The notes beneath the pieces are model-generated. The model had not been told where the DNA came from and made no database searches. It saw only the letters and a program-made list of their open reading frames with translations. A stretch of 37,461 bases of DNA from Parcubacteria group bacterium LiPW_41 (GTDB lineage Bacteria; Patescibacteriota; Minisyncoccia; UBA6257; GWB1-50-10), in assembly GCA_007375535.1 (NCBI GenBank), contig VMEM01000001.1, positions 1-37,461 of the forward strand, written 5' to 3'. This document shows, one piece after another, positions 8,361-36,083 of the stretch. Position numbers and translations under genes: made by a program. Each line of letters starts with the position of its first letter. Positions within the stretch are counted from its first letter, which is position 1.

Positions 8361-8432
8361 TGCGGGAGAGAGCGGTGGTTGCTCGTCAGGCTCATAACCT
8401 GAAGGCCGTTGGTTCGAATCCAACTCCCGCAA
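8361..8432 (+). tRNA. tRNA-Met(CAU), initiator-like; no encoded CCA
   Basis: Cloverleaf TGCGGGA/TCCCGCA, D stem GAGC/GCTC (A11-U24 initiator signature), anticodon arm TCAGG-CTCATAA-CCTGA, T arm GTTGG-TTCGAAT-CCAAC. Confidence 0.93.
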
Positions 8433-8585
8433 CAAGTTGTGGTTATAAACCAACTGCTTGGTTTATAAGTTGGTTCGAAGGGCGGAGCGTTGTGCGAGTA
8501 GTAACGAGCACCGCGAGCCCGGGCTCGAAACAATTGCGAGCGACGGCGAGCAATTAGTCGAGAGGAATCCAACTCCCGCAACAAG
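8433..8585 (+). mobile_element. tRNA-linked structured mini-element 1
   Basis: 21-bp direct repeat of the tRNA 3' end and trailer (8416-8436 = 8565-8585); core homologous to 10144-10229. Mobility is inferred, not shown. Confidence 0.7.
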
Positions 8586-8587
8586 AC

Positions 8588-8609
8588 AAAAACCATTAAA
8601 TGGTTTTTT
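8588..8609 (+). terminator. Weak hairpin plus T-tract after element 1
   Basis: AAAAACCA-TTAAA-TGGTTTTTT. Confidence 0.5.
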
Positions 8610-8697
8610 CTATTTTTGAGGACTAGGATAGCGAATCAAGGCAATAATTTGGTATAAACTTGGCGAATTAAGTAAAATAATATATAAATGAATAAAC

Positions 8698-8771
8698 GGC
8701 AGGGTAGCTCAGCTGGTTAGAGCGTGGGACTCATAAGCCCAAGGTCGTGGGTTCGACCCCCACCCCTGCTA
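8698..8771 (+). tRNA. tRNA with CAU anticodon, probably elongator Met (Ile2 not excluded); no encoded CCA
   Basis: GGCAGGG/CCCTGCT acceptor stem, GCTC/GAGC D stem, TGGGA-CTCATAA-GCCCA, GTGGG-TTCGACC-CCCAC. Confidence 0.93.
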
Positions 8772-8917
8772 CTTGAAAATTGGTTTTTCTTTTTTGGGGT
8801 CGAAGAGTATTTGAGCGCGCGAACGCGAAAAGTGAGTGGAACGAACGGCAGCGAAAAACTCGGGCTCCGAAGGAGGAGCGAAAGCGACGGGTGAGGAGGA
8901 CCCCCACCCCTGCTACT
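8772..8917 (+). mobile_element. tRNA-linked structured mini-element 2 (different core)
   Basis: 19-bp perfect direct repeat of the tRNA 3' end (8755-8773 = 8899-8917); antisense T-loop copy GGGGTCGAA at 8796-8804. Confidence 0.65.
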
Positions 8918-8923
8918 AGTAGG

Positions 8924-8943
8924 AAACACCATTGGTGTTTTTT
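8924..8943 (+). terminator. Hairpin plus T-tract after element 2
   Basis: AAACACC-ATT-GGTGTTTTTT. Confidence 0.55.
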
Positions 8944-8989
8944 ATTTAGAAATTCCATTAAATACAAATCTCTAGTATTCTCAATATAT

Positions 8990-9430
8990 ATGACAGAACA
9001 ACAAAAACTTCAAATTATTGAAATTGCCAAAAAACAAATTGGAAAACCATATGTTTTTGGAGCACACGAAGCAGAAGAAGGAGAGGTTTTCGATTGTTCA
9101 TCATTTGTACAATTTGTTTTTTCTTCAATAGGAATCGATCTACCACGAAGCAGCATCTTACAAGCAGGAGACGAAAAAGGAAAAGAAATAACGCTTGGAT
9201 CAGAACTAGAAGTCGGCGATCTTTTATTTATGCGTGGAGTACGCGGATATTATCGTGATTCATTTTTTGGTGGAAGAGAATTATATATTGGACATGTTGG
9301 TATCTATCTAGGAAACAATAAAATTATCCACGCACAAGCACATAAGGAACCACACGGAGTAATCGTAGAAACAATTGAAGAATTGGAAAAAGAGAAAAAT
9401 TATAAAATCAATTTAGTTAAACGATTCTAA
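8990..9430 (+). CDS. NlpC/P60 (C40) family peptidase
   Basis: GKPYVFGA, FDCSSFVQFVF, LPRSS..Q, GDLLF, GHVGIYLG..IIHA. Real start likely ATG 8990; the ORF-track extension runs through tRNA element 2. Confidence 0.92.
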   Translation: MTEQQKLQIIEIAKKQIGKPYVFGAHEAEEGEVFDCSSFVQFVFSSIGIDLPRSSILQAGDEKGKEITLGSELEVGDLLFMRGVRGYYRDSFFGGRELYIGHVGIYLGNNKIIHAQAHKEPHGVIVETIEELEKEKNYKINLVKRF

Positions 9431-9432
9431 TA

Positions 9433-9975
9433 ATGAAAAAAGTTCCTCAATATTCACAATTCCTTGATGTAACAAAAAAGGGATGGAAAATACGTGCATG
9501 CGGAGTTGCTTCACTTGCAATGGTCCTTGATCATTACAAAAAAAATAAAAAAACATCAATCGATAAACTTATTGATTATGGGGTTTCTATTGGAGCACAT
9601 AATAAAGAACTTGGATGGATACACTCAGGAATTGTAAATATTGCAAAACATGAAGGATTCAAAGGAGAACGCTACGACTGGAGAGATATAGACGCAAACA
9701 TTTCATTTAATAAAATGAATGAATATTTAAAGAACGGACCGATCATTGCCTCGATTCATAAAAACTTTAATCCAAAGAATTCAGGACACCTAGTTGTTGT
9801 CACATCAAAAAATAAATCACACATCACTATCCACGATCCAATTGCTCGGAAACGAGAACAAATAAAAAGGGAAATACCAATAGACGTATTCCTTACTGGG
9901 TGGAAGAAGCGAATTGTTGTTGTCCGTCCAAAATCAAAAAAGATTTGCGAATGCAAAAAAGGAATGATACAATAG
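9433..9975 (+). CDS. C39-like cysteine peptidase
   Basis: VPQYSQ...ACGVASLAMVL, GHLVVV, IHDP give the Q/C/H/D catalytic pattern. Confidence 0.85.
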   Translation: MKKVPQYSQFLDVTKKGWKIRACGVASLAMVLDHYKKNKKTSIDKLIDYGVSIGAHNKELGWIHSGIVNIAKHEGFKGERYDWRDIDANISFNKMNEYLKNGPIIASIHKNFNPKNSGHLVVVTSKNKSHITIHDPIARKREQIKREIPIDVFLTGWKKRIVVVRPKSKKICECKKGMIQ

Positions 9976-9991
9976 GTTTGTTCTAATAATT

Positions 9992-10065
9992 GCGGTGGTA
10001 GCTCAGCTGGTTAGAGCGCTGCCCTGTCACGGCAGAGGTCGAGGGTTCAATTCCCTTCCACCGCG
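9992..10065 (+). tRNA. tRNA-Asp(GUC); no encoded CCA
   Basis: GCGGTGG/CCACCGC acceptor stem, G73, CTGCC-CTGTCAC-GGCAG, GAGGG-TTCAATT-CCCTT. Confidence 0.96.
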
Positions 10066-10262
10066 CAGACAAAAAACATTCGTAAGAATGTTTTTTTGTT
10101 TGTTGGTGGAAGCGAGCCAACTGCTTGGCTCGCGTAGGGAATTGAAGCCCGGAGCGTTGTGTGAGTAGTAACGAACACCGCGAGGGCGGGCCCGTAGACA
10201 ATTGCGAGCGACGGCGAGCAATTAGTCGGAGTGGCAATTGCCTTCCACCGCGCAGACAAAAA
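10066..10262 (+). mobile_element. tRNA-linked structured mini-element 3 (homolog of element 1)
   Basis: 28-bp direct repeat with 1 mismatch (10048-10075 vs 10235-10262); antisense tRNA pieces GGTGGAA (10105-10111) and AGGGAATTGAA (10136-10146). Confidence 0.7.
10071..10097 (+). terminator. Terminator-like hairpin immediately after tRNA-Asp
   Basis: AAAAAACATTC-GTAA-GAATGTTTTTTT. Confidence 0.6.
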
Positions 10263-10291
10263 TATCGCCCCTTACTAGGGGCGATATTTTT
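10259..10291. terminator. Bidirectional terminator between the tRNA-Asp unit and gatA
   Basis: AAAATATCGCCCCT-TACT-AGGGGCGATATTTT. Confidence 0.8.
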
Positions 10292-11729
10292 ATTCTTTTT
10301 CGTACTCCTTTCCTACCGCAAACAAATCTGCCTCATGAAAATGTTTCCCAATAAGCTGAAAGTTCACCGGTAATTCCCCACTCCCCACAGCAAACTTTTT
10401 TACTGGAATTGAGATTCCTGGAAGTCCTGCAAGGTTCACTGGAATAGTGAAAATATCCGAAAGATACATAGAAAGTGGATCATTTGTCTTCTCTCCAAGC
10501 TTGAATGCTGGAGTTGGTGTAGTTGGTGTTAATATAACATCAACTTCATCAAACGCTTTTGCAAAATCTTGAGATATAAGCGTTCTTACCTTCTGTGCTT
10601 TTGAATAATATGCATCGTAATATCCAGACGAAAGTACAAACGTTCCAAGCAAAATTCTTCGTCGTGATTCCTTTCCAAATCCAACGCCTCGCGTTTTTAT
10701 ATATAGATCTTTAAGGTTCTCTACATCTTTTTTAATCTCACTCACTCCCAAATACCGAACGCCATCAAGACGCGCCAAGTTTGTTGAAACCTCTGCTGGC
10801 ATAATTATGTAATATGTCGACAATGCGTATTTTGTGTGTGGTAACGAAATTTCTTTAAATGAAAAACCAAGCTTTTTTAACCTCTCTATTGCATCACTTA
10901 TATATTTCGAAACATATGGATCAATTCCTTCAATAAAATATTCTTTCGGAATTCCAATAACCATTTTCCTTTCTTCCCCTATCGGTTTTGATCTCAATTC
11001 TTTTTTCTCAAAAGTAGTCGCGTCGTGTAAATCTTTTCCACGAATTGCATTAAAAAGAATTTCTGAGTCAGAAACGGTTTTTGAAAATGGTCCAATTTGA
11101 TCAAGACTCGATGCCATTGCAACAATTCCAAAACGAGACACCGCTCCATATGTTGGTTTCATTCCCACTACACCACACAAGGCCGCAGGCTGCCTGATTG
11201 ACCCACCGGTGTCCGATCCGAATGATCCAAGTGTTGCACCACACGCAACCGAAACCGCAGACCCACCAGACGAACCACCGGAAACACAGGTTTTATTATG
11301 AGGATTTTTCACTGGACCAAATGCGGAATTTTCGTTTGAAGAACCCATAGCAAACTCATCCATATTTGTTTTTCCAACAATTGTTGCGTTAAGTCCTTTT
11401 AATTTCTCAGCAACCCACCCATCATAACTTGCAACATACTCACTTAATATTTTTGATCCAGCGGTAGTAACCGACCCCTTCAAGAGCATGTTATCTTTCA
11501 GGGCAATTGGAACTCCACCAAGCAACGGCACATTTTCGCCGCGCGCGATCATTGCGTCTATTGTATCCGCAGAACGGATTGCATCCTCTTTTGTAAAAGA
11601 AATAAATGCATTCAAATCCTTGTTTTCTTCTATCGCTTTGTAACTTTCATCCATTGCTTCGCGCGCAGAAAATTCTTTTGCACACAACGCATCGTGAAAT
11701 TCTTGTATTGTTAGGTTTTTGATATCCAT
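10290..11729 (-). CDS. gatA: Asp-tRNA(Asn)/Glu-tRNA(Gln) amidotransferase subunit A
   Basis: Amidase signature GKTNMDEFAMGSS, GGSSGGSA, GSDTGGSIRQPAA; RRILLGTFVLSSGYYDAYY; follows gatC. Confidence 0.97.
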   Translation of the reverse strand: MDIKNLTIQEFHDALCAKEFSAREAMDESYKAIEENKDLNAFISFTKEDAIRSADTIDAMIARGENVPLLGGVPIALKDNMLLKGSVTTAGSKILSEYVASYDGWVAEKLKGLNATIVGKTNMDEFAMGSSNENSAFGPVKNPHNKTCVSGGSSGGSAVSVACGATLGSFGSDTGGSIRQPAALCGVVGMKPTYGAVSRFGIVAMASSLDQIGPFSKTVSDSEILFNAIRGKDLHDATTFEKKELRSKPIGEERKMVIGIPKEYFIEGIDPYVSKYISDAIERLKKLGFSFKEISLPHTKYALSTYYIIMPAEVSTNLARLDGVRYLGVSEIKKDVENLKDLYIKTRGVGFGKESRRRILLGTFVLSSGYYDAYYSKAQKVRTLISQDFAKAFDEVDVILTPTTPTPAFKLGEKTNDPLSMYLSDIFTIPVNLAGLPGISIPVKKFAVGSGELPVNFQLIGKHFHEADLFAVGKEYEKE

Positions 11730-27372: not shown

Positions 27373-28089
27373 GTGACACCACACCCAAGTGAAATACTCA
27401 AAAGTTCGTTGTTTCCTCCACGATGTGTAATTTGTAATATAGCAACGAACAATGAAAAATATGAAGCAATCTGTGATTCATGCATAAGGGGATACACTCC
27501 GCTTTCTGGATTTTCCTGTCCTGAATGTGGGAAAAGAATTCCAACACTTCATTCAATCTGTCACCGGACAAATTTTCTCCTCTGTGCATCACAACTATAT
27601 TCAAATCGTCCTACAGAAATACTTATTCAACATCTAAAATTCCTTTATATAAGATCAGCAGCAATTCCCGTCGCACATATGATGTTACAGACACTAAACA
27701 GTGTCATACAGGAAATCCCATTCGATCTTTCAAAAACTTTACTCACACCAATTCCCCTTGCTTCACGTAGAGAGCGAGAACGCGGATTCAATCAATCGGC
27801 GCTTCTCGCAAAAGAGATTCATTCGTGTATTCCACAACTTATCTATGCACCAAAAATACTAAAACGAATTAAATATGAGTTGCCCCAAACAAAAACACAT
27901 ACACAAAAGGAGCGTAACATAAATTTAAATAATGCCTTTTCTGCAGATATACCAACTACAATACAAGGACTTCCAATAATACTCATAGATGATGTTTATA
28001 CAACAGGAGCAACAATAAAAAATGCAGTAAAAAAATTAAAAGAAAAAGGAGCAGGAAAAATTATTGTTCTCGTTGGAGCGCGCACATAA
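27373..28089 (+). CDS. comF: ComF family competence protein (Zn finger plus phosphoribosyltransferase)
   Basis: LFPPRCVIC..CDSC..CPEC, RGFNQS, LIDDVYTTGAT. Likely start GTG 27373. Confidence 0.92.
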   Translation: MTPHPSEILKSSLFPPRCVICNIATNNEKYEAICDSCIRGYTPLSGFSCPECGKRIPTLHSICHRTNFLLCASQLYSNRPTEILIQHLKFLYIRSAAIPVAHMMLQTLNSVIQEIPFDLSKTLLTPIPLASRRERERGFNQSALLAKEIHSCIPQLIYAPKILKRIKYELPQTKTHTQKERNINLNNAFSADIPTTIQGLPIILIDDVYTTGATIKNAVKKLKEKGAGKIIVLVGART

Positions 28090-28094
28090 AAACA

Positions 28095-28116
28095 CCGCCA
28101 GTCCATAGACTGGCGG
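28095..28116. repeat. REP-like palindrome
   Basis: CCGCCAGTC-CATA-GACTGGCGG between convergent genes. Confidence 0.75.
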
Positions 28117-28155
28117 AATTCCTAAACCCAAGTTGCTAATAACTGACCCCTTTCT

Positions 28156-35518: not shown

Positions 35519-35534
35519 CTTGTAATAATATTCA

Positions 35535-35564
35535 AATCCCGCCAGTCCATGGACTAGCGGGATT
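35535..35564. repeat. REP-like palindrome and probable bidirectional terminator
   Basis: AATCCCGCCAGTCCATGGACTAGCGGGATT; one difference from the 5277 copy over this span. Confidence 0.82.
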
Positions 35565-35570
35565 ATTTTT

Positions 35571-36083
35571 TTATAATTTTCCTTCGATATATCTCTTACA
35601 AAACCTTATAAGCTTTTGATCACTCTGAACAAAATTTGTTTCTTTTTTTATTCCTTTGTTATTTTTCCACCATTGCTCTTCAAGACACTTGTCTAACCAC
35701 TCCACCTCACTTGCATCTCCAAATTTTTTTAGAAAATTCCTCTGAACTTTGTACGCATCTCGCTCTGCACTATCTCCAATATATTTTCTTCCTTGCTTCC
35801 ATTGAAACATATGCGCTCCCTCATGAATGAATAATGAAGCAAGATACACACCTGATGATTCAAGAATTGTCTTTGGCTCACACACATATATTCCTTCCTC
35901 TGGAAAAAGCATATTGTCATACGAACCAGTTGGACGAACAATAATACTCCTAATTAATTTAACTGACGAAAAAGAGCGCACCGCATTATTTTCAATAAAA
36001 CGTAGTGCAACTTTTATTTTGTTTATTTCCTTACTATCTGATGCCCCAATAGTAAATGTTTTAAATTTTTTTAGTATGTACAT
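35571..36083 (-). CDS. Hypothetical protein with HExxH motif (putative zinc metallopeptidase)
   Basis: LASLFIHEGAHMFQ...AERDAY. Confidence 0.7.
   Translation of the reverse strand: MYILKKFKTFTIGASDSKEINKIKVALRFIENNAVRSFSSVKLIRSIIVRPTGSYDNMLFPEEGIYVCEPKTILESSGVYLASLFIHEGAHMFQWKQGRKYIGDSAERDAYKVQRNFLKKFGDASEVEWLDKCLEEQWWKNNKGIKKETNFVQSDQKLIRFCKRYIEGKL

What the first reader, a model, noticed from the sequence alone, without database searches (positions are those of the whole stretch)
8361..10262. All three tRNAs carry a miniature structured element bracketed by antisense and direct copies of that tRNA's own 3' end
Seen: each tRNA 3' end is duplicated downstream starting within the T-loop (21 bp, 8416/8565; 19 bp, 8755/8899; 28 bp with 1 mismatch, 10048/10235), at spacings of 149, 144 and 187 bp. 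Each insert also has, near its left side, the reverse complement of the same tRNA's T-arm: AGGGAATTGAA for Asp and GGGGTCGAA for the second Met tRNA are exact, AGTTGGTTCGAA for the initiator has one gap. The flanks are host-tRNA-specific while the core is shared between the initiator and Asp copies. Established: tyrosine-integrase elements duplicate tRNA 3' ends and the T-loop is a known crossover sublocation, but those elements are kilobases long and encode an integrase. Inference: a non-autonomous tRNA-targeting mini-element family whose inverted termini are templated from each target, or a conserved tRNA trailer structure. No cognate enzyme is in this window. This is my best candidate for an undescribed system.
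Basis: partly seen in the sequence, partly recalled or inferred. Interest (0 to 1): 0.87.

Follow-up and report, generated by a model that had tools for sequence, protein, structure and literature searches.

The report
Mini structured cassettes nested in tRNAs
Most tRNA genes of this tiny bacterial genome carry a 100-190 base, tightly folding, gene-less insert that appears to have supplied a new tRNA tail and pushed the old tail downstream, which looks like a miniature and apparently undescribed kind of tRNA-targeting mobile element.

Summary
All three repeats, spacings and the shared core are confirmed. Genome-wide, 28 of 48 tRNA genes plus the tmRNA gene carry the same layout: tRNA, often a terminator (T1), an antisense arm (S'), a GC-rich core, a direct copy of the tRNA 3' end (S) that starts in the T-loop, and a terminator. 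Cores fall into at least five families, occur only beside t(m)RNA 3' ends, and match nothing in Rfam. Family A has a strongly covarying fold: 34 of 35 pairs show double changes in 38 copies from 13 genomes. Occupancy turns over between congeneric genomes with identical tRNAs, including an empty site, an extra unit exactly between two S copies, and tandem arrays with the newest unit next to the tRNA. T1+S'+core are conserved at 82-100% while distal S, T2 and flanks decay. Best reading: miniature non-coding integrative cassettes that regenerate the tRNA 3' end and displace the original. No cognate enzyme was found. The RAYT-like gene does not co-occur, the RT belongs to a DGR, and there is only one Xer-type recombinase. 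The mechanism of movement is unresolved. Eight literature searches found no description.

The parts
8361..8433 (+). tRNA-Met (CAT), initiator-like. Its last 18 nt plus 3 trailer nt (8416-8436) form the proximal copy of repeat S.
   Evidence: ARAGORN; Rfam RF00005 60.6 bits; repeat D9
8436..8479 (+). Left arm S' of element 1 (family A). It comprises a 7-nt antisense-acceptor block (8436-8442), the conserved hairpin H1 (8443-8468), and an antisense/near-palindromic T-arm block (8469-8479).
   Evidence: I16, D18; MFE fold; alignments
8480..8564 (+). Family A core of element 1: a three-way junction of covarying hairpins.
   Evidence: CM hit 138.9 bits; covariation; fold -60.5 kcal/mol, z -4.69
8565..8585 (+). 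Distal copy of S, 21 of 21 identical to 8416-8436. Read as the displaced original tRNA 3' end.
   Evidence: D9; G001 has the empty site
8586..8617 (+). Hairpin plus T-run after element 1 (T2).
   Evidence: sequence read; not listed by the simple scan (stem is AT-rich)
8698..8772 (+). tRNA-Met (CAT), elongator-like. The proximal S copy is 8755-8773.
   Evidence: D10
8797..8805 (+). S' of element 2: an exact 9-nt antisense of the T-loop/T-stem 3' strand. The same block is conserved in G001.
8806..8898 (+). Family B core of element 2.
   Evidence: family alignment; RNAalifold 22 pairs, 11 compensatory (4 sequences). The single-sequence fold is not better than shuffles (z 0.0).
8899..8917 (+). Distal copy of S, 19 of 19.
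   Evidence: D10
8918..8947 (+). Hairpin plus T-run after element 2 (T2), conserved in G001.
9992..10066 (+). tRNA-Asp (GTC). The proximal S copy is 10048-10075.
   Evidence: D6
10067..10103 (+). Terminator-like hairpin T1 between tRNA-Asp and the element. It is part of the conserved unit (82% identical to G001, against 44% for T2).
   Evidence: I1, I24
10105..10146 (+). Left arm S' of element 3 (family A). It comprises an antisense-acceptor block (10105-10112), hairpin H1 (10113-10133), and an antisense T-arm block (10136-10146).
   Evidence: I13, D8
10147..10234 (+). Family A core of element 3.
   Evidence: CM hit 154.3 bits; 87% identical (S' plus core) to the orthologous G001 copy
10235..10262 (+). 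Distal copy of S, 27 of 28.
   Evidence: D6
10258..10296 (+). Intrinsic-terminator-like hairpin T2 (15-bp stem plus T-run).

Best explanation
These are miniature (about 100-190 bp), gene-less, strongly folding integrative cassettes that live in the T-loop of tRNA and tmRNA genes of Patescibacteria (CPR). Each integrated unit consists of a replacement tRNA 3' end (proximal S), often its own terminator (T1), an arm antisense to that 3' end (S'), and a GC-rich multi-hairpin core. The tRNA's original 3' end and terminator are pushed downstream, where they survive as the direct repeat (distal S, T2) and then decay. Shown: units are gained and lost exactly at the S repeats, new units enter next to the tRNA, and arrays form. 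Inferred: exchange happens by recombination at or in the T-loop, either by a tyrosine-type recombinase acting in trans or by homologous exchange using the tRNA and S as arms. Also inferred: the fold closed by S' pairing with S is what the mobility machinery, or the element's persistence, needs. That fold may form in a single-stranded DNA state.
For: (1) Architecture. In 25 of 48 tRNA genes a near-perfect copy of the tRNA's own 3' end lies 100-259 nt downstream, and 3 more have the core with a degenerate copy. The tmRNA gene has one too, 24 of 25 nt. The copy starts at tRNA position 56-58 in 18 of 25 and at 53 in 5 (family D). Its other edge varies from -4 to +12 or more, sometimes through the terminator. 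This is the pattern of identity blocks left by elements that integrate in tRNA genes: a regenerated target plus a displaced fragment (abstract of PMC4383910; passages of PMC9897764). (2) Site specificity. All core copies in the genome lie directly 3' of a tRNA-like end and on its strand. BLAST of all trailers against the genome found no other core copy. Of 27 copies in relatives, 24 follow an ARAGORN tRNA, 1 an intron-bearing tRNA, 1 a tRNA cut by the contig end, and 1 sits at a contig edge. (3) Mobility. Family A is present in 13 of 41 related genomes and in 4 of 150 other genomes sampled across the phylum, at different tRNAs in different genomes. G001, whose tRNAs are about 100% identical, lacks elements at 10 or more tRNAs that have them in G000, and has them at 4 where G000 has none. 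Val-TAC has family D in G000 and family A in G001. The first-Met site of the window is empty in G001. At tRNA-His, G001 has one extra 128-bp unit lying exactly between two identical 20-nt S copies. (4) Order of events. In arrays the S next to the newest unit is perfect and the most distal S is decayed. At two orthologous loci, T1 is 28/28 and 28/34 identical and S'+core 88% and 87%, while distal S is 74% and 57%, T2 44%, and flanks 46-77%. (5) The fold is selected. In 38 copies, 92.6% of cells are paired against 62.7% in shuffles and 29-45% in slid controls, and 34 of 35 pairs have double changes. Other families also show compensatory pairs.
Against: No enzyme is tied to the elements. The genome has one tyrosine recombinase of the Xer type. 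11 of the 13 family A genomes have exactly one, 1 has seven, and in 1 none was found, so there is no extra integrase. The RAYT-like HUH gene is missing in 8 of 13 family A genomes. No IS110, TnpB, EndA or RtcB was found. No core motif appears in viral contigs apart from 2 chance hits. How one core family acquires the specific 3' end of more than 15 different tRNAs is unexplained. Cores conserved at 87-88% beside flanks at 46-77% could equally mean a function for the host. No excised or circular form and no insertion event has been seen. Classical integrase elements need neither an antisense arm nor a conserved fold.
Confidence: 0.55

Rival explanations
1. Host-serving structured RNA modules. 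The trailer is transcribed with, or just after, the tRNA and folds into a stable small RNA. In family A it is tRNA-like, with an acceptor-like stem, one hairpin and an extended T-stem. It would serve tRNA maturation or quality control, or act as a decoy. The S' arm would be kept complementary to the tRNA 3' half for that purpose.
For: S'+core is conserved at 87-88% and T1 at 82-100% at orthologous loci where coding flanks are 46-77%. Loop nucleotides are invariant and covariation is strong. Orientation is always that of the tRNA, and a terminator follows S. Tandem G.A mismatches occur only on the tRNA-sense strand: 54 cells against 0 C.T. The family A fold resembles a minihelix with the host tRNA's own acceptor and T-stem sequence.
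Against: Occupancy differs at more than 14 tRNAs between two congeneric genomes with identical tRNAs. 20 of 48 tRNAs lack an element. Five or more unrelated core families share one site. There are tandem and truncated units. A terminator (T1) usually separates the element from the tRNA. The helices show no wobble enrichment: G.U 25 against A.C 20 of 1290, compared with 33 against 6 of 782 in the genome's tRNA stems, Fisher p = 0.005. No solid RNA evidence was obtained.
Confidence: 0.2
2. Guide-directed insertion. The element moves as RNA or single-stranded DNA, its S' arm pairs with the T-loop-to-3'-end segment of a tRNA gene, and insertion with staggered breaks duplicates the paired target. 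Under this reading both S copies are a target-site duplication.
For: S' always keeps the antisense T-loop/T-stem block. The duplicated block has one fixed and one variable edge, as in target-primed insertion. S copies share the local trailer sequence and not just the tRNA. In family A the arm is split into two target-specific segments by a scaffold hairpin, like a guide RNA.
Against: The only RT is part of a DGR, with an adjacent Avd (PF22296, 50 bits). S' differences from a perfect antisense are not adenine-specific. T1, which lies between the proximal S and S', is conserved with the element, which fits an imported S+T1 better than a duplication. S' is degenerate even beside perfect S copies. 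No TnpB, IS110 or HUH partner was found.
Confidence: 0.12
3. Scars. Each unit is what remains of a kilobase-scale prophage or island that integrated in the tRNA and then lost almost everything between attL and attR.
For: The regenerated target plus displaced fragment is the hallmark of such integrations (PMC4383910 abstract; PMC9897764 passages). tmRNA is hit as well.
Against: Scars would not share five conserved, covarying folds across genomes and tRNAs. They would not be this uniform in size: periods are 100-259 nt, and 24 of 25 are 192 nt or less. They would not be 87-88% conserved where flanks are not. No core motif is found in viral contigs.
Confidence: 0.06
4. Assembly or binning artefact of short-read metagenome assembly at repeats.
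For: Some copies lie at contig ends in G002, so the repeats do break assemblies.
Against: The same architecture is found in 13 independent assemblies, with orthologous copies that have diverged by substitutions and compensatory changes.
Confidence: 0.01

Closest known systems
Genomic islands and prophages integrated in tRNA/tmRNA genes by tyrosine integrases (T-loop sublocation)
   Same: The target gene is split and regenerated by element-borne sequence. The displaced 3' fragment remains as a direct repeat that marks the far end. The crossover sublocation is in the T-loop, and tmRNA genes are also hit (abstract of PMC4383910; passages of PMC9897764; title and abstract of PMC1762012 for a T-loop attB; Williams 2002 seen only in a reference list).
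   Different: These units are two orders of magnitude smaller (100-190 bp against 3-120 kb). They have no integrase or any other gene. They have a conserved covarying fold and an antisense arm. They occupy 29 of 49 t(m)RNA genes in a 0.75-Mb genome that encodes only a Xer-type recombinase.
Cis-mobilizable elements (CIMEs): att-flanked elements without recombination genes, moved by a related element's integrase
   Same: Non-autonomous, bounded by attL- and attR-like repeats, and able to form tandem arrays with other units. The concept is recalled; PMC7563491 and PMC5704250 were seen only in a search listing.
   Different: No cognate integrase-bearing element was found in this genome or in 11 of the 13 family A genomes. 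The size is far smaller, and the folded core has no counterpart in CIMEs.
Single-strand recombination substrates: integron attC cassettes and the folded attP of CTX phage (IMEX, host Xer)
   Same: A short element whose single strand folds so that two inverted segments rebuild a duplex recombination site. New integron cassettes enter at the array's proximal end. Host Xer does the work for IMEX. (Abstracts of PMC4792948 and PMC3442271; details recalled.) Here S' pairs with S to rebuild the duplex of the tRNA 3' segment, helices are almost purely Watson-Crick plus G.A, and the newest unit is proximal.
   Different: The target is a tRNA T-loop, not attI or dif. No IntI was found. Nothing shows that the Xer-type enzyme acts here. 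20-nt target-specific identity is needed to keep the tRNA intact. This is a resemblance only, not a tested mechanism.
MITEs and REP/REPIN elements (RAYT-mobilised)
   Same: Small, non-coding, hairpin-forming, multi-copy intergenic elements with inverted ends (abstract of PMC3184786 in a search listing; otherwise recalled).
   Different: The insertion site is strictly tRNA 3' ends. One 'inverted end' is the target's own sequence. The duplication is 19-30+ nt with a variable outer edge. The RAYT-like gene does not co-occur, being absent in 8 of 13 family A genomes.

Membership tests
tRNA-integrating islands/prophages (tyrosine integrase) | Regenerated target gene plus displaced 3' fragment as direct repeats at the two ends | tested here: met
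   25 of 48 tRNAs plus the tmRNA
tRNA-integrating islands/prophages (tyrosine integrase) | Identity block starts at a fixed sublocation (T-loop) | tested here: met
   Positions 56-58 in 18 of 25 and position 53 in 5 of 25
tRNA-integrating islands/prophages (tyrosine integrase) | Element encodes its own integrase | tested here: not met
   Units of 100-259 nt have no gene. The genome has one Xer-type recombinase elsewhere.
tRNA-integrating islands/prophages (tyrosine integrase) | Excision to a circle, with attP x attB integration | not testable with these tools
   Only contigs of public runs were available
CIME | A cognate integrase-bearing element in the same host or population | tested here: not met
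   One PF00589 gene in 11 of 13 family A genomes. No core motif in viral contigs. The wider population was not testable.
REP/REPIN-RAYT | Co-occurrence with a RAYT (Y1 HUH) gene | tested here: not met
   5 of 13 family A genomes have it and 8 lack it; 10 of 28 genomes without family A have it
MITE | Element-specific terminal inverted repeats, a fixed-length TSD and a related autonomous IS | tested here: not met
   The ends are target-derived, the duplication length varies, and no transposase family was found
Integron cassette (attC) | IntI integrase and an attI platform | tested here: not met
   The only recombinase scores 127.7 against a cut-off of 265 for integron integrase
Integron cassette (attC) / IMEX | A folded single strand rebuilds the recombination site | tested here: inconclusive
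   S':S closing helix is predicted. The mismatch spectrum is Watson-Crick plus G.A without wobble excess. This is compatible with the feature but is not proof.
IS200/IS605-TnpB omega RNA, IS110 bridge RNA | Adjacent or genomic TnpB or IS110 recombinase | tested here: not met
   PF07282 and PF01548 not found in G000, 98.8% complete
Any Rfam family (ribozymes, tRNA-like, sRNAs) | Covariance-model match | tested here: not met
   Only tRNAs reach the gathering score. At E up to 10, nothing lies on the cores.
Archaeal-type tRNA intron / split tRNA | Splicing endonuclease and ligase present, with the tRNA interrupted | tested here: not met
   The tRNA is intact upstream. PF01974 and PF01139 were not found.
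DGR / retroelement product | RT linked to the element, with adenine-specific changes | tested here: not met
   The RT sits in a DGR with Avd at another locus. S' substitutions are not A-specific.

The most novel reading that the evidence does not exclude
A new class of selfish DNA in CPR bacteria: gene-less cassettes that exist functionally as folded single strands, for example on incoming transforming DNA or the lagging-strand template. Their S':S helix would rebuild the duplex of a tRNA's T-loop-to-3'-end segment. They would be recombined into tRNA and tmRNA genes by host machinery alone, either the cell's single Xer-type recombinase or RecA using the tRNA and S as homology arms. This would be an integron- or CTX-like single-strand pathway aimed at the most conserved genes of the cell, needing no element-encoded protein.
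Probability: 0.2. Interest if true: 0.9.

Novelty: new variant of a known kind. Interest (0 to 1): 0.8.

Why it matters
If the reading holds, streamlined CPR genomes of about 0.75 Mb tolerate, or use, a swarm of miniature elements on about 60% of their t(m)RNA genes, with no integrase of their own. That would show that the logic of integrating into a tRNA and rebuilding it can be miniaturised to about 100 bp of folded DNA or RNA. It raises a directly testable question of which host or phage enzyme recognises a T-loop. It explains assembly breaks and partial tRNA calls in CPR MAGs. It also provides natural, compact, site-specific landing modules for tRNA genes. If instead the cores are host RNAs, they are five or more new structured RNA families tied to tRNA biology in organisms with minimal RNA-processing machinery.

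Tried and rejected
RAYT-like HUH transposase as mobiliser: rejected. It is absent in 8 of 13 family A genomes, including the 100%-complete G001 with 6 copies.

The genome's RT: it is a DGR RT with an adjacent Avd and shows no link to the elements.

EndA, RtcB, IS110 and TnpB: not found in G000.

An extra integrase in element-bearing genomes: not found.

Phage origin: strict motifs of families A, C and D gave 0 hits in viral contigs. B and E gave 1 hit each, both inside GC-rich coding DNA without a tRNA, so both are chance. These scans find only exact motif matches, so diverged copies would be missed.

Rfam at the gathering score and at E up to 10: nothing on the cores.

Public reads: all runs were Logan contigs of metagenomes.
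- Cover outside the conserved tRNA bodies was thin and of uncertain organism.
- One contig of X2 joins 10076 to 10297 through 38 other letters (side 58, flank about 84% alike). That would be a relative's tRNA-Asp without the element.
- Another X2 contig joins 8434 to 8698 (side 26).
- A 151-nt contig of X10 (kind guessed as RNA) covers 8361-8511.
- I treat all of these as weak leads only, and make no claim about expression or habitat.

The strand test by G.U against A.C was not decisive for RNA against DNA. The first attempts at the tRNA control failed or were mis-indexed and were replaced.

Promoter scan: no promoter-like site lies directly upstream of any of the three elements, and 5 sites were found against 3.8 expected.

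Literature: eight searches and passages of PMC9897764 gave no description of such mini-elements.

Structure prediction and complex prediction were not used, because no protein is involved.

I did not build models for families B-E or survey them in relatives, so 'genomes without family A' may still hold other families. G026 holds a sixth type at 2 of 33 tRNAs.
Full report
**1. What is in the window**

ARAGORN and Rfam agree on three tRNA genes on the + strand: Met at 8361-8433, Met at 8698-8772 and Asp at 9992-10066.

Each is followed by an exact or near-exact copy of its own 3' end:
- 21 nt at 8416 and 8565
- 19 nt at 8755 and 8899
- 28 nt with one mismatch at 10048 and 10235

The first Met and Asp inserts share a core: 51 nt at 86% and 31 of 31 nt. 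The second Met insert has a different core.

Each insert begins with a block antisense to the T-loop and T-stem 3' strand. In the two family A copies, that arm is split by a conserved hairpin. Upstream of the hairpin lies a second block antisense to the acceptor 3' strand.

One correction: the first-Met 11-mer is also an exact direct copy of the T-stem 5' strand plus loop (D18), because the T-arm is nearly palindromic.

**2. Scale in the genome**

The window is part of a 746,768-bp, 6-contig genome with 37% G+C. It has 46 ARAGORN tRNAs, one tmRNA and two further tRNAs interrupted by group I introns (RF00028, 77 and 84 bits).

- 25 of the 48 tRNA genes have a clear downstream copy of their own 3' end. 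Alignment scores are 27-62, against 12-25 for the other 23.
- Three more have a recognisable core with a degenerate copy.
- The tmRNA gene has one as well, with a 24 of 25 nt copy and a family D-like core.
- Of the 20 tRNAs without an element, 8 are the upstream members of tandem tRNA pairs.
- BLAST of every trailer against the genome found cores nowhere except directly 3' of a tRNA-like end. The other hits were shared terminator hairpins.
- A same-order genome without family A (G026) shows the duplication at only 2 of 33 tRNAs, with a sixth, unrelated insert lacking the antisense arm.

That last result gives a background rate. It also shows that the direct duplication, not the antisense arm, is the common denominator.

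**3. Anatomy**

The layout is: tRNA; often a terminator-like hairpin T1; arm S' (antisense); GC-rich core; S (direct copy); terminator T2.

Cores fall into at least five families:
- A: 9 copies
- B: 5
- C: 4
- D: 6, plus the tmRNA copy
- E: 4

S starts at tRNA position 56-58 in 18 of 25 elements and at position 53 in 5 (all family D). Its outer edge varies from 4 nt inside the tRNA end to 12 or more nt beyond it. In tRNA-His and tRNA-Arg(GCG) it runs through the terminator.

S is nearly always perfect. S' reliably keeps only the antisense T-loop/T-stem block and decays beyond it with an AT bias.

**4. The fold is under selection**

For nine family A copies in this genome, RNAalifold predicts 35 pairs, 23 with compensatory changes.

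A covariance model found 38 copies in 13 genomes. On that alignment:
- 92.6% of cells are paired, against 62.7% in shuffles and 29-45% with slid partners.
- 34 of 35 pairs show changes on both sides.
- No shuffle in 500 reaches any measure.

The alignment was fitted to the model, which favours the structure, but the slid controls are far lower.

Families D, C+E and B also show compensatory pairs: 15 of 27, 3 of 16 and 11 of 22. In C+E and B the predicted closing helix is S' with S.

The first-Met element folds at -60.5 kcal/mol (z -4.69) into a 7-bp acceptor-like stem, the hairpin, and a T-stem-like helix extended into a three-way junction. The Asp element gives z -3.63. The second-Met element alone is no better than shuffles.

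Nothing in Rfam matches the cores.

**5. Which strand, and RNA or DNA?**

Tandem G.A mismatches are common in the helices read on the tRNA-sense strand: 54 cells, against 0 C.T. So that strand is the one that folds.

G.U pairs are not enriched over A.C: 25 against 20 of 1290 cells. The same genome's tRNA stems show 33 against 6 of 782 (Fisher p = 0.005).

This fits either a fold used as single-stranded DNA or neutral decay of individual copies. It does not decide between them.

**6. Turnover**

Family A occurs in 13 of 41 related genomes. That is 9 of 24 other genomes of the same family and 3 of 16 genomes of other families in the order, each a different family. It also occurs in 4 of 150 other genomes drawn across the phylum.

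A strict motif scan of 185,579 species genomes hit only MAGs labelled Patescibacteria, Paceibacterota, Yanofskybacteria or Saccharibacteria, or labelled only 'bacterium' (7 loci).

In relatives the family follows other tRNAs (Cys, Ile, Phe, Gln, Lys, several Gly and Arg), each time with a copy of that tRNA's own end.

G001 belongs to the same genus, but its coding DNA is only about 60-77% identical to G000 while its tRNAs are about 100% identical. Among the 36 G001 tRNAs examined, the comparison with G000 shows:
- 10 or more tRNAs occupied in G000 have no S copy in G001.
- Four (Trp, Gln-CTG, Arg-TCT, Ile-GAT) are occupied where G000 is empty.
- Val-TAC has family A in G001 where G000 has family D.
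- The window's first-Met site is empty.
- The second-Met site keeps the same S' block with a different, shorter core and no S.
- The Asp element is orthologous.
- At tRNA-His, G001 has one additional 128-bp unit lying exactly between two identical 20-nt S copies, upstream of the shared older family A unit.

G002 has two tandem units after tRNA-Cys. The middle S is perfect and the distal S is decayed.

Within G000, Arg-CCG, Arg-GCG and Tyr show partial tandem units.

**7. What is the unit?**

| Segment | Thr-CGT locus | Asp locus |
|---|---|---|
| T1 | 28/28 identical | 28/34 identical |
| S'+core | 88% | 87% |
| Distal S | 74% | 57% |
| T2 | not measured | 44% |
| Flanks | 46-72% | 59-77% |

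All values are G000 against G001 at the two orthologous loci.

So the conserved unit runs from the tRNA's 3' end through T1, S' and the core. The distal S and T2 behave as displaced, decaying host sequence.

That is the logic of elements that integrate into tRNA genes. The element restores the gene, and the displaced fragment marks its far end (abstract of PMC4383910; passages of PMC9897764, which describe 9-121 kb cases). The hit on tmRNA fits the same habit.

The two copies of S, and of the terminator at His, share genome-specific variants. This points to continued exchange between the repeats.

**8. Enzymes**

- G000 encodes one tyrosine recombinase of the Xer type. It scores above the NCBIfam cut-off only for the XerA-type model.
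- 39 of 41 relatives have at least one PF00589 gene. 11 of the 13 family A genomes have exactly one. So no dedicated integrase travels with the elements.
- The single RT is part of a diversity-generating retroelement.
- The RAYT-like HUH gene does not co-occur with family A.
- EndA, RtcB, IS110 and TnpB were not found.
- No core motif lies in viral contigs.

**9. Best reading and its limits**

Shown:
- site specificity for t(m)RNA 3' ends
- a fixed junction in the T-loop
- gain and loss of whole units at the S repeats
- the newest unit lying proximal to the tRNA
- a selected fold
- no cognate gene

Inferred:
- Units enter by recombination in the T-loop and bring a replacement 3' end.
- The S':S-closed fold is what the process needs, possibly in a single-stranded state, as with integron attC sites or the folded attP of CTX phage (abstracts of PMC4792948 and PMC3442271; resemblance only).
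- Alternatively, units spread by homologous exchange, using the universally conserved tRNA and S as arms.

Unexplained:
- how one core family acquires the specific 3' ends of many different tRNAs
- why the cores are so well conserved
- whether an RNA is made

The host-RNA reading therefore keeps substantial weight.

**10. Novelty**

Eight full-text searches and Rfam gave no description. Supplements and subscription journals could not be checked.

I file it as a new variant of a known kind: tRNA-integrating, non-autonomous elements that are extremely miniaturised, structured and integrase-less. There is a real chance that the mechanism is new.

Noticed in passing
G000:C5:163012-163351 (- strand) and about 200 nt downstream, outside the window: The tmRNA gene carries a family D-like element with T1, a decayed antisense arm and a 24 of 25 nt copy of its 3' end.
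   Followed up: partly
L027:57-288 and L028:36-266 (G000 contig C2): Two tRNA genes missed by ARAGORN are interrupted by group I introns (RF00028, 77 and 84 bits). Both also carry 3' elements. A third such case lies in a relative (L049).
   Followed up: partly
L060 (G000:C6:101287-104895): A diversity-generating retroelement: a 350-aa RT, an adjacent Avd-like gene on the other strand, and two upstream ORFs with similar Asn-rich C-terminal repeats that look like a template/variable pair.
   Followed up: partly
window 28083-28120 and 35534-35572; also G000 C1:124794-124851, C2:84209-84287, C4:9180-9224 and C6:105602-105650: A family of near-identical GC-rich palindromic terminator hairpins recurs after unrelated genes and after some elements. 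It may be a separate small repeat family.
   Followed up: no
L061:1285-1983 (G000:C1): A single RAYT-like Y1 HUH gene (232 aa). Homologues occur in 15 of 41 relatives, sometimes in 2-3 copies. Its repeat partner, if any, was not looked for.
   Followed up: partly
G000:C6:38651-38800 and C3:66739-66811: A tandem Lys(TTT)-Ser(CGA)-like tRNA pair and a second His(GTG) tRNA duplicate isoacceptors found elsewhere and lack elements. They could be foreign or mobile-element tRNAs.
   Followed up: no
G002 contigs C3:1-140 and C6:1-120: Family A copies sit at contig ends, so these repeats probably break short-read assemblies of such genomes.
   Followed up: no
G026 tRNA-Val(GAC) and tRNA-Phe(GAA) trailers: A sixth insert type of about 95 nt, with a 16-nt copy of the tRNA end starting at the T-stem 3' strand and no antisense arm.
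   Followed up: partly
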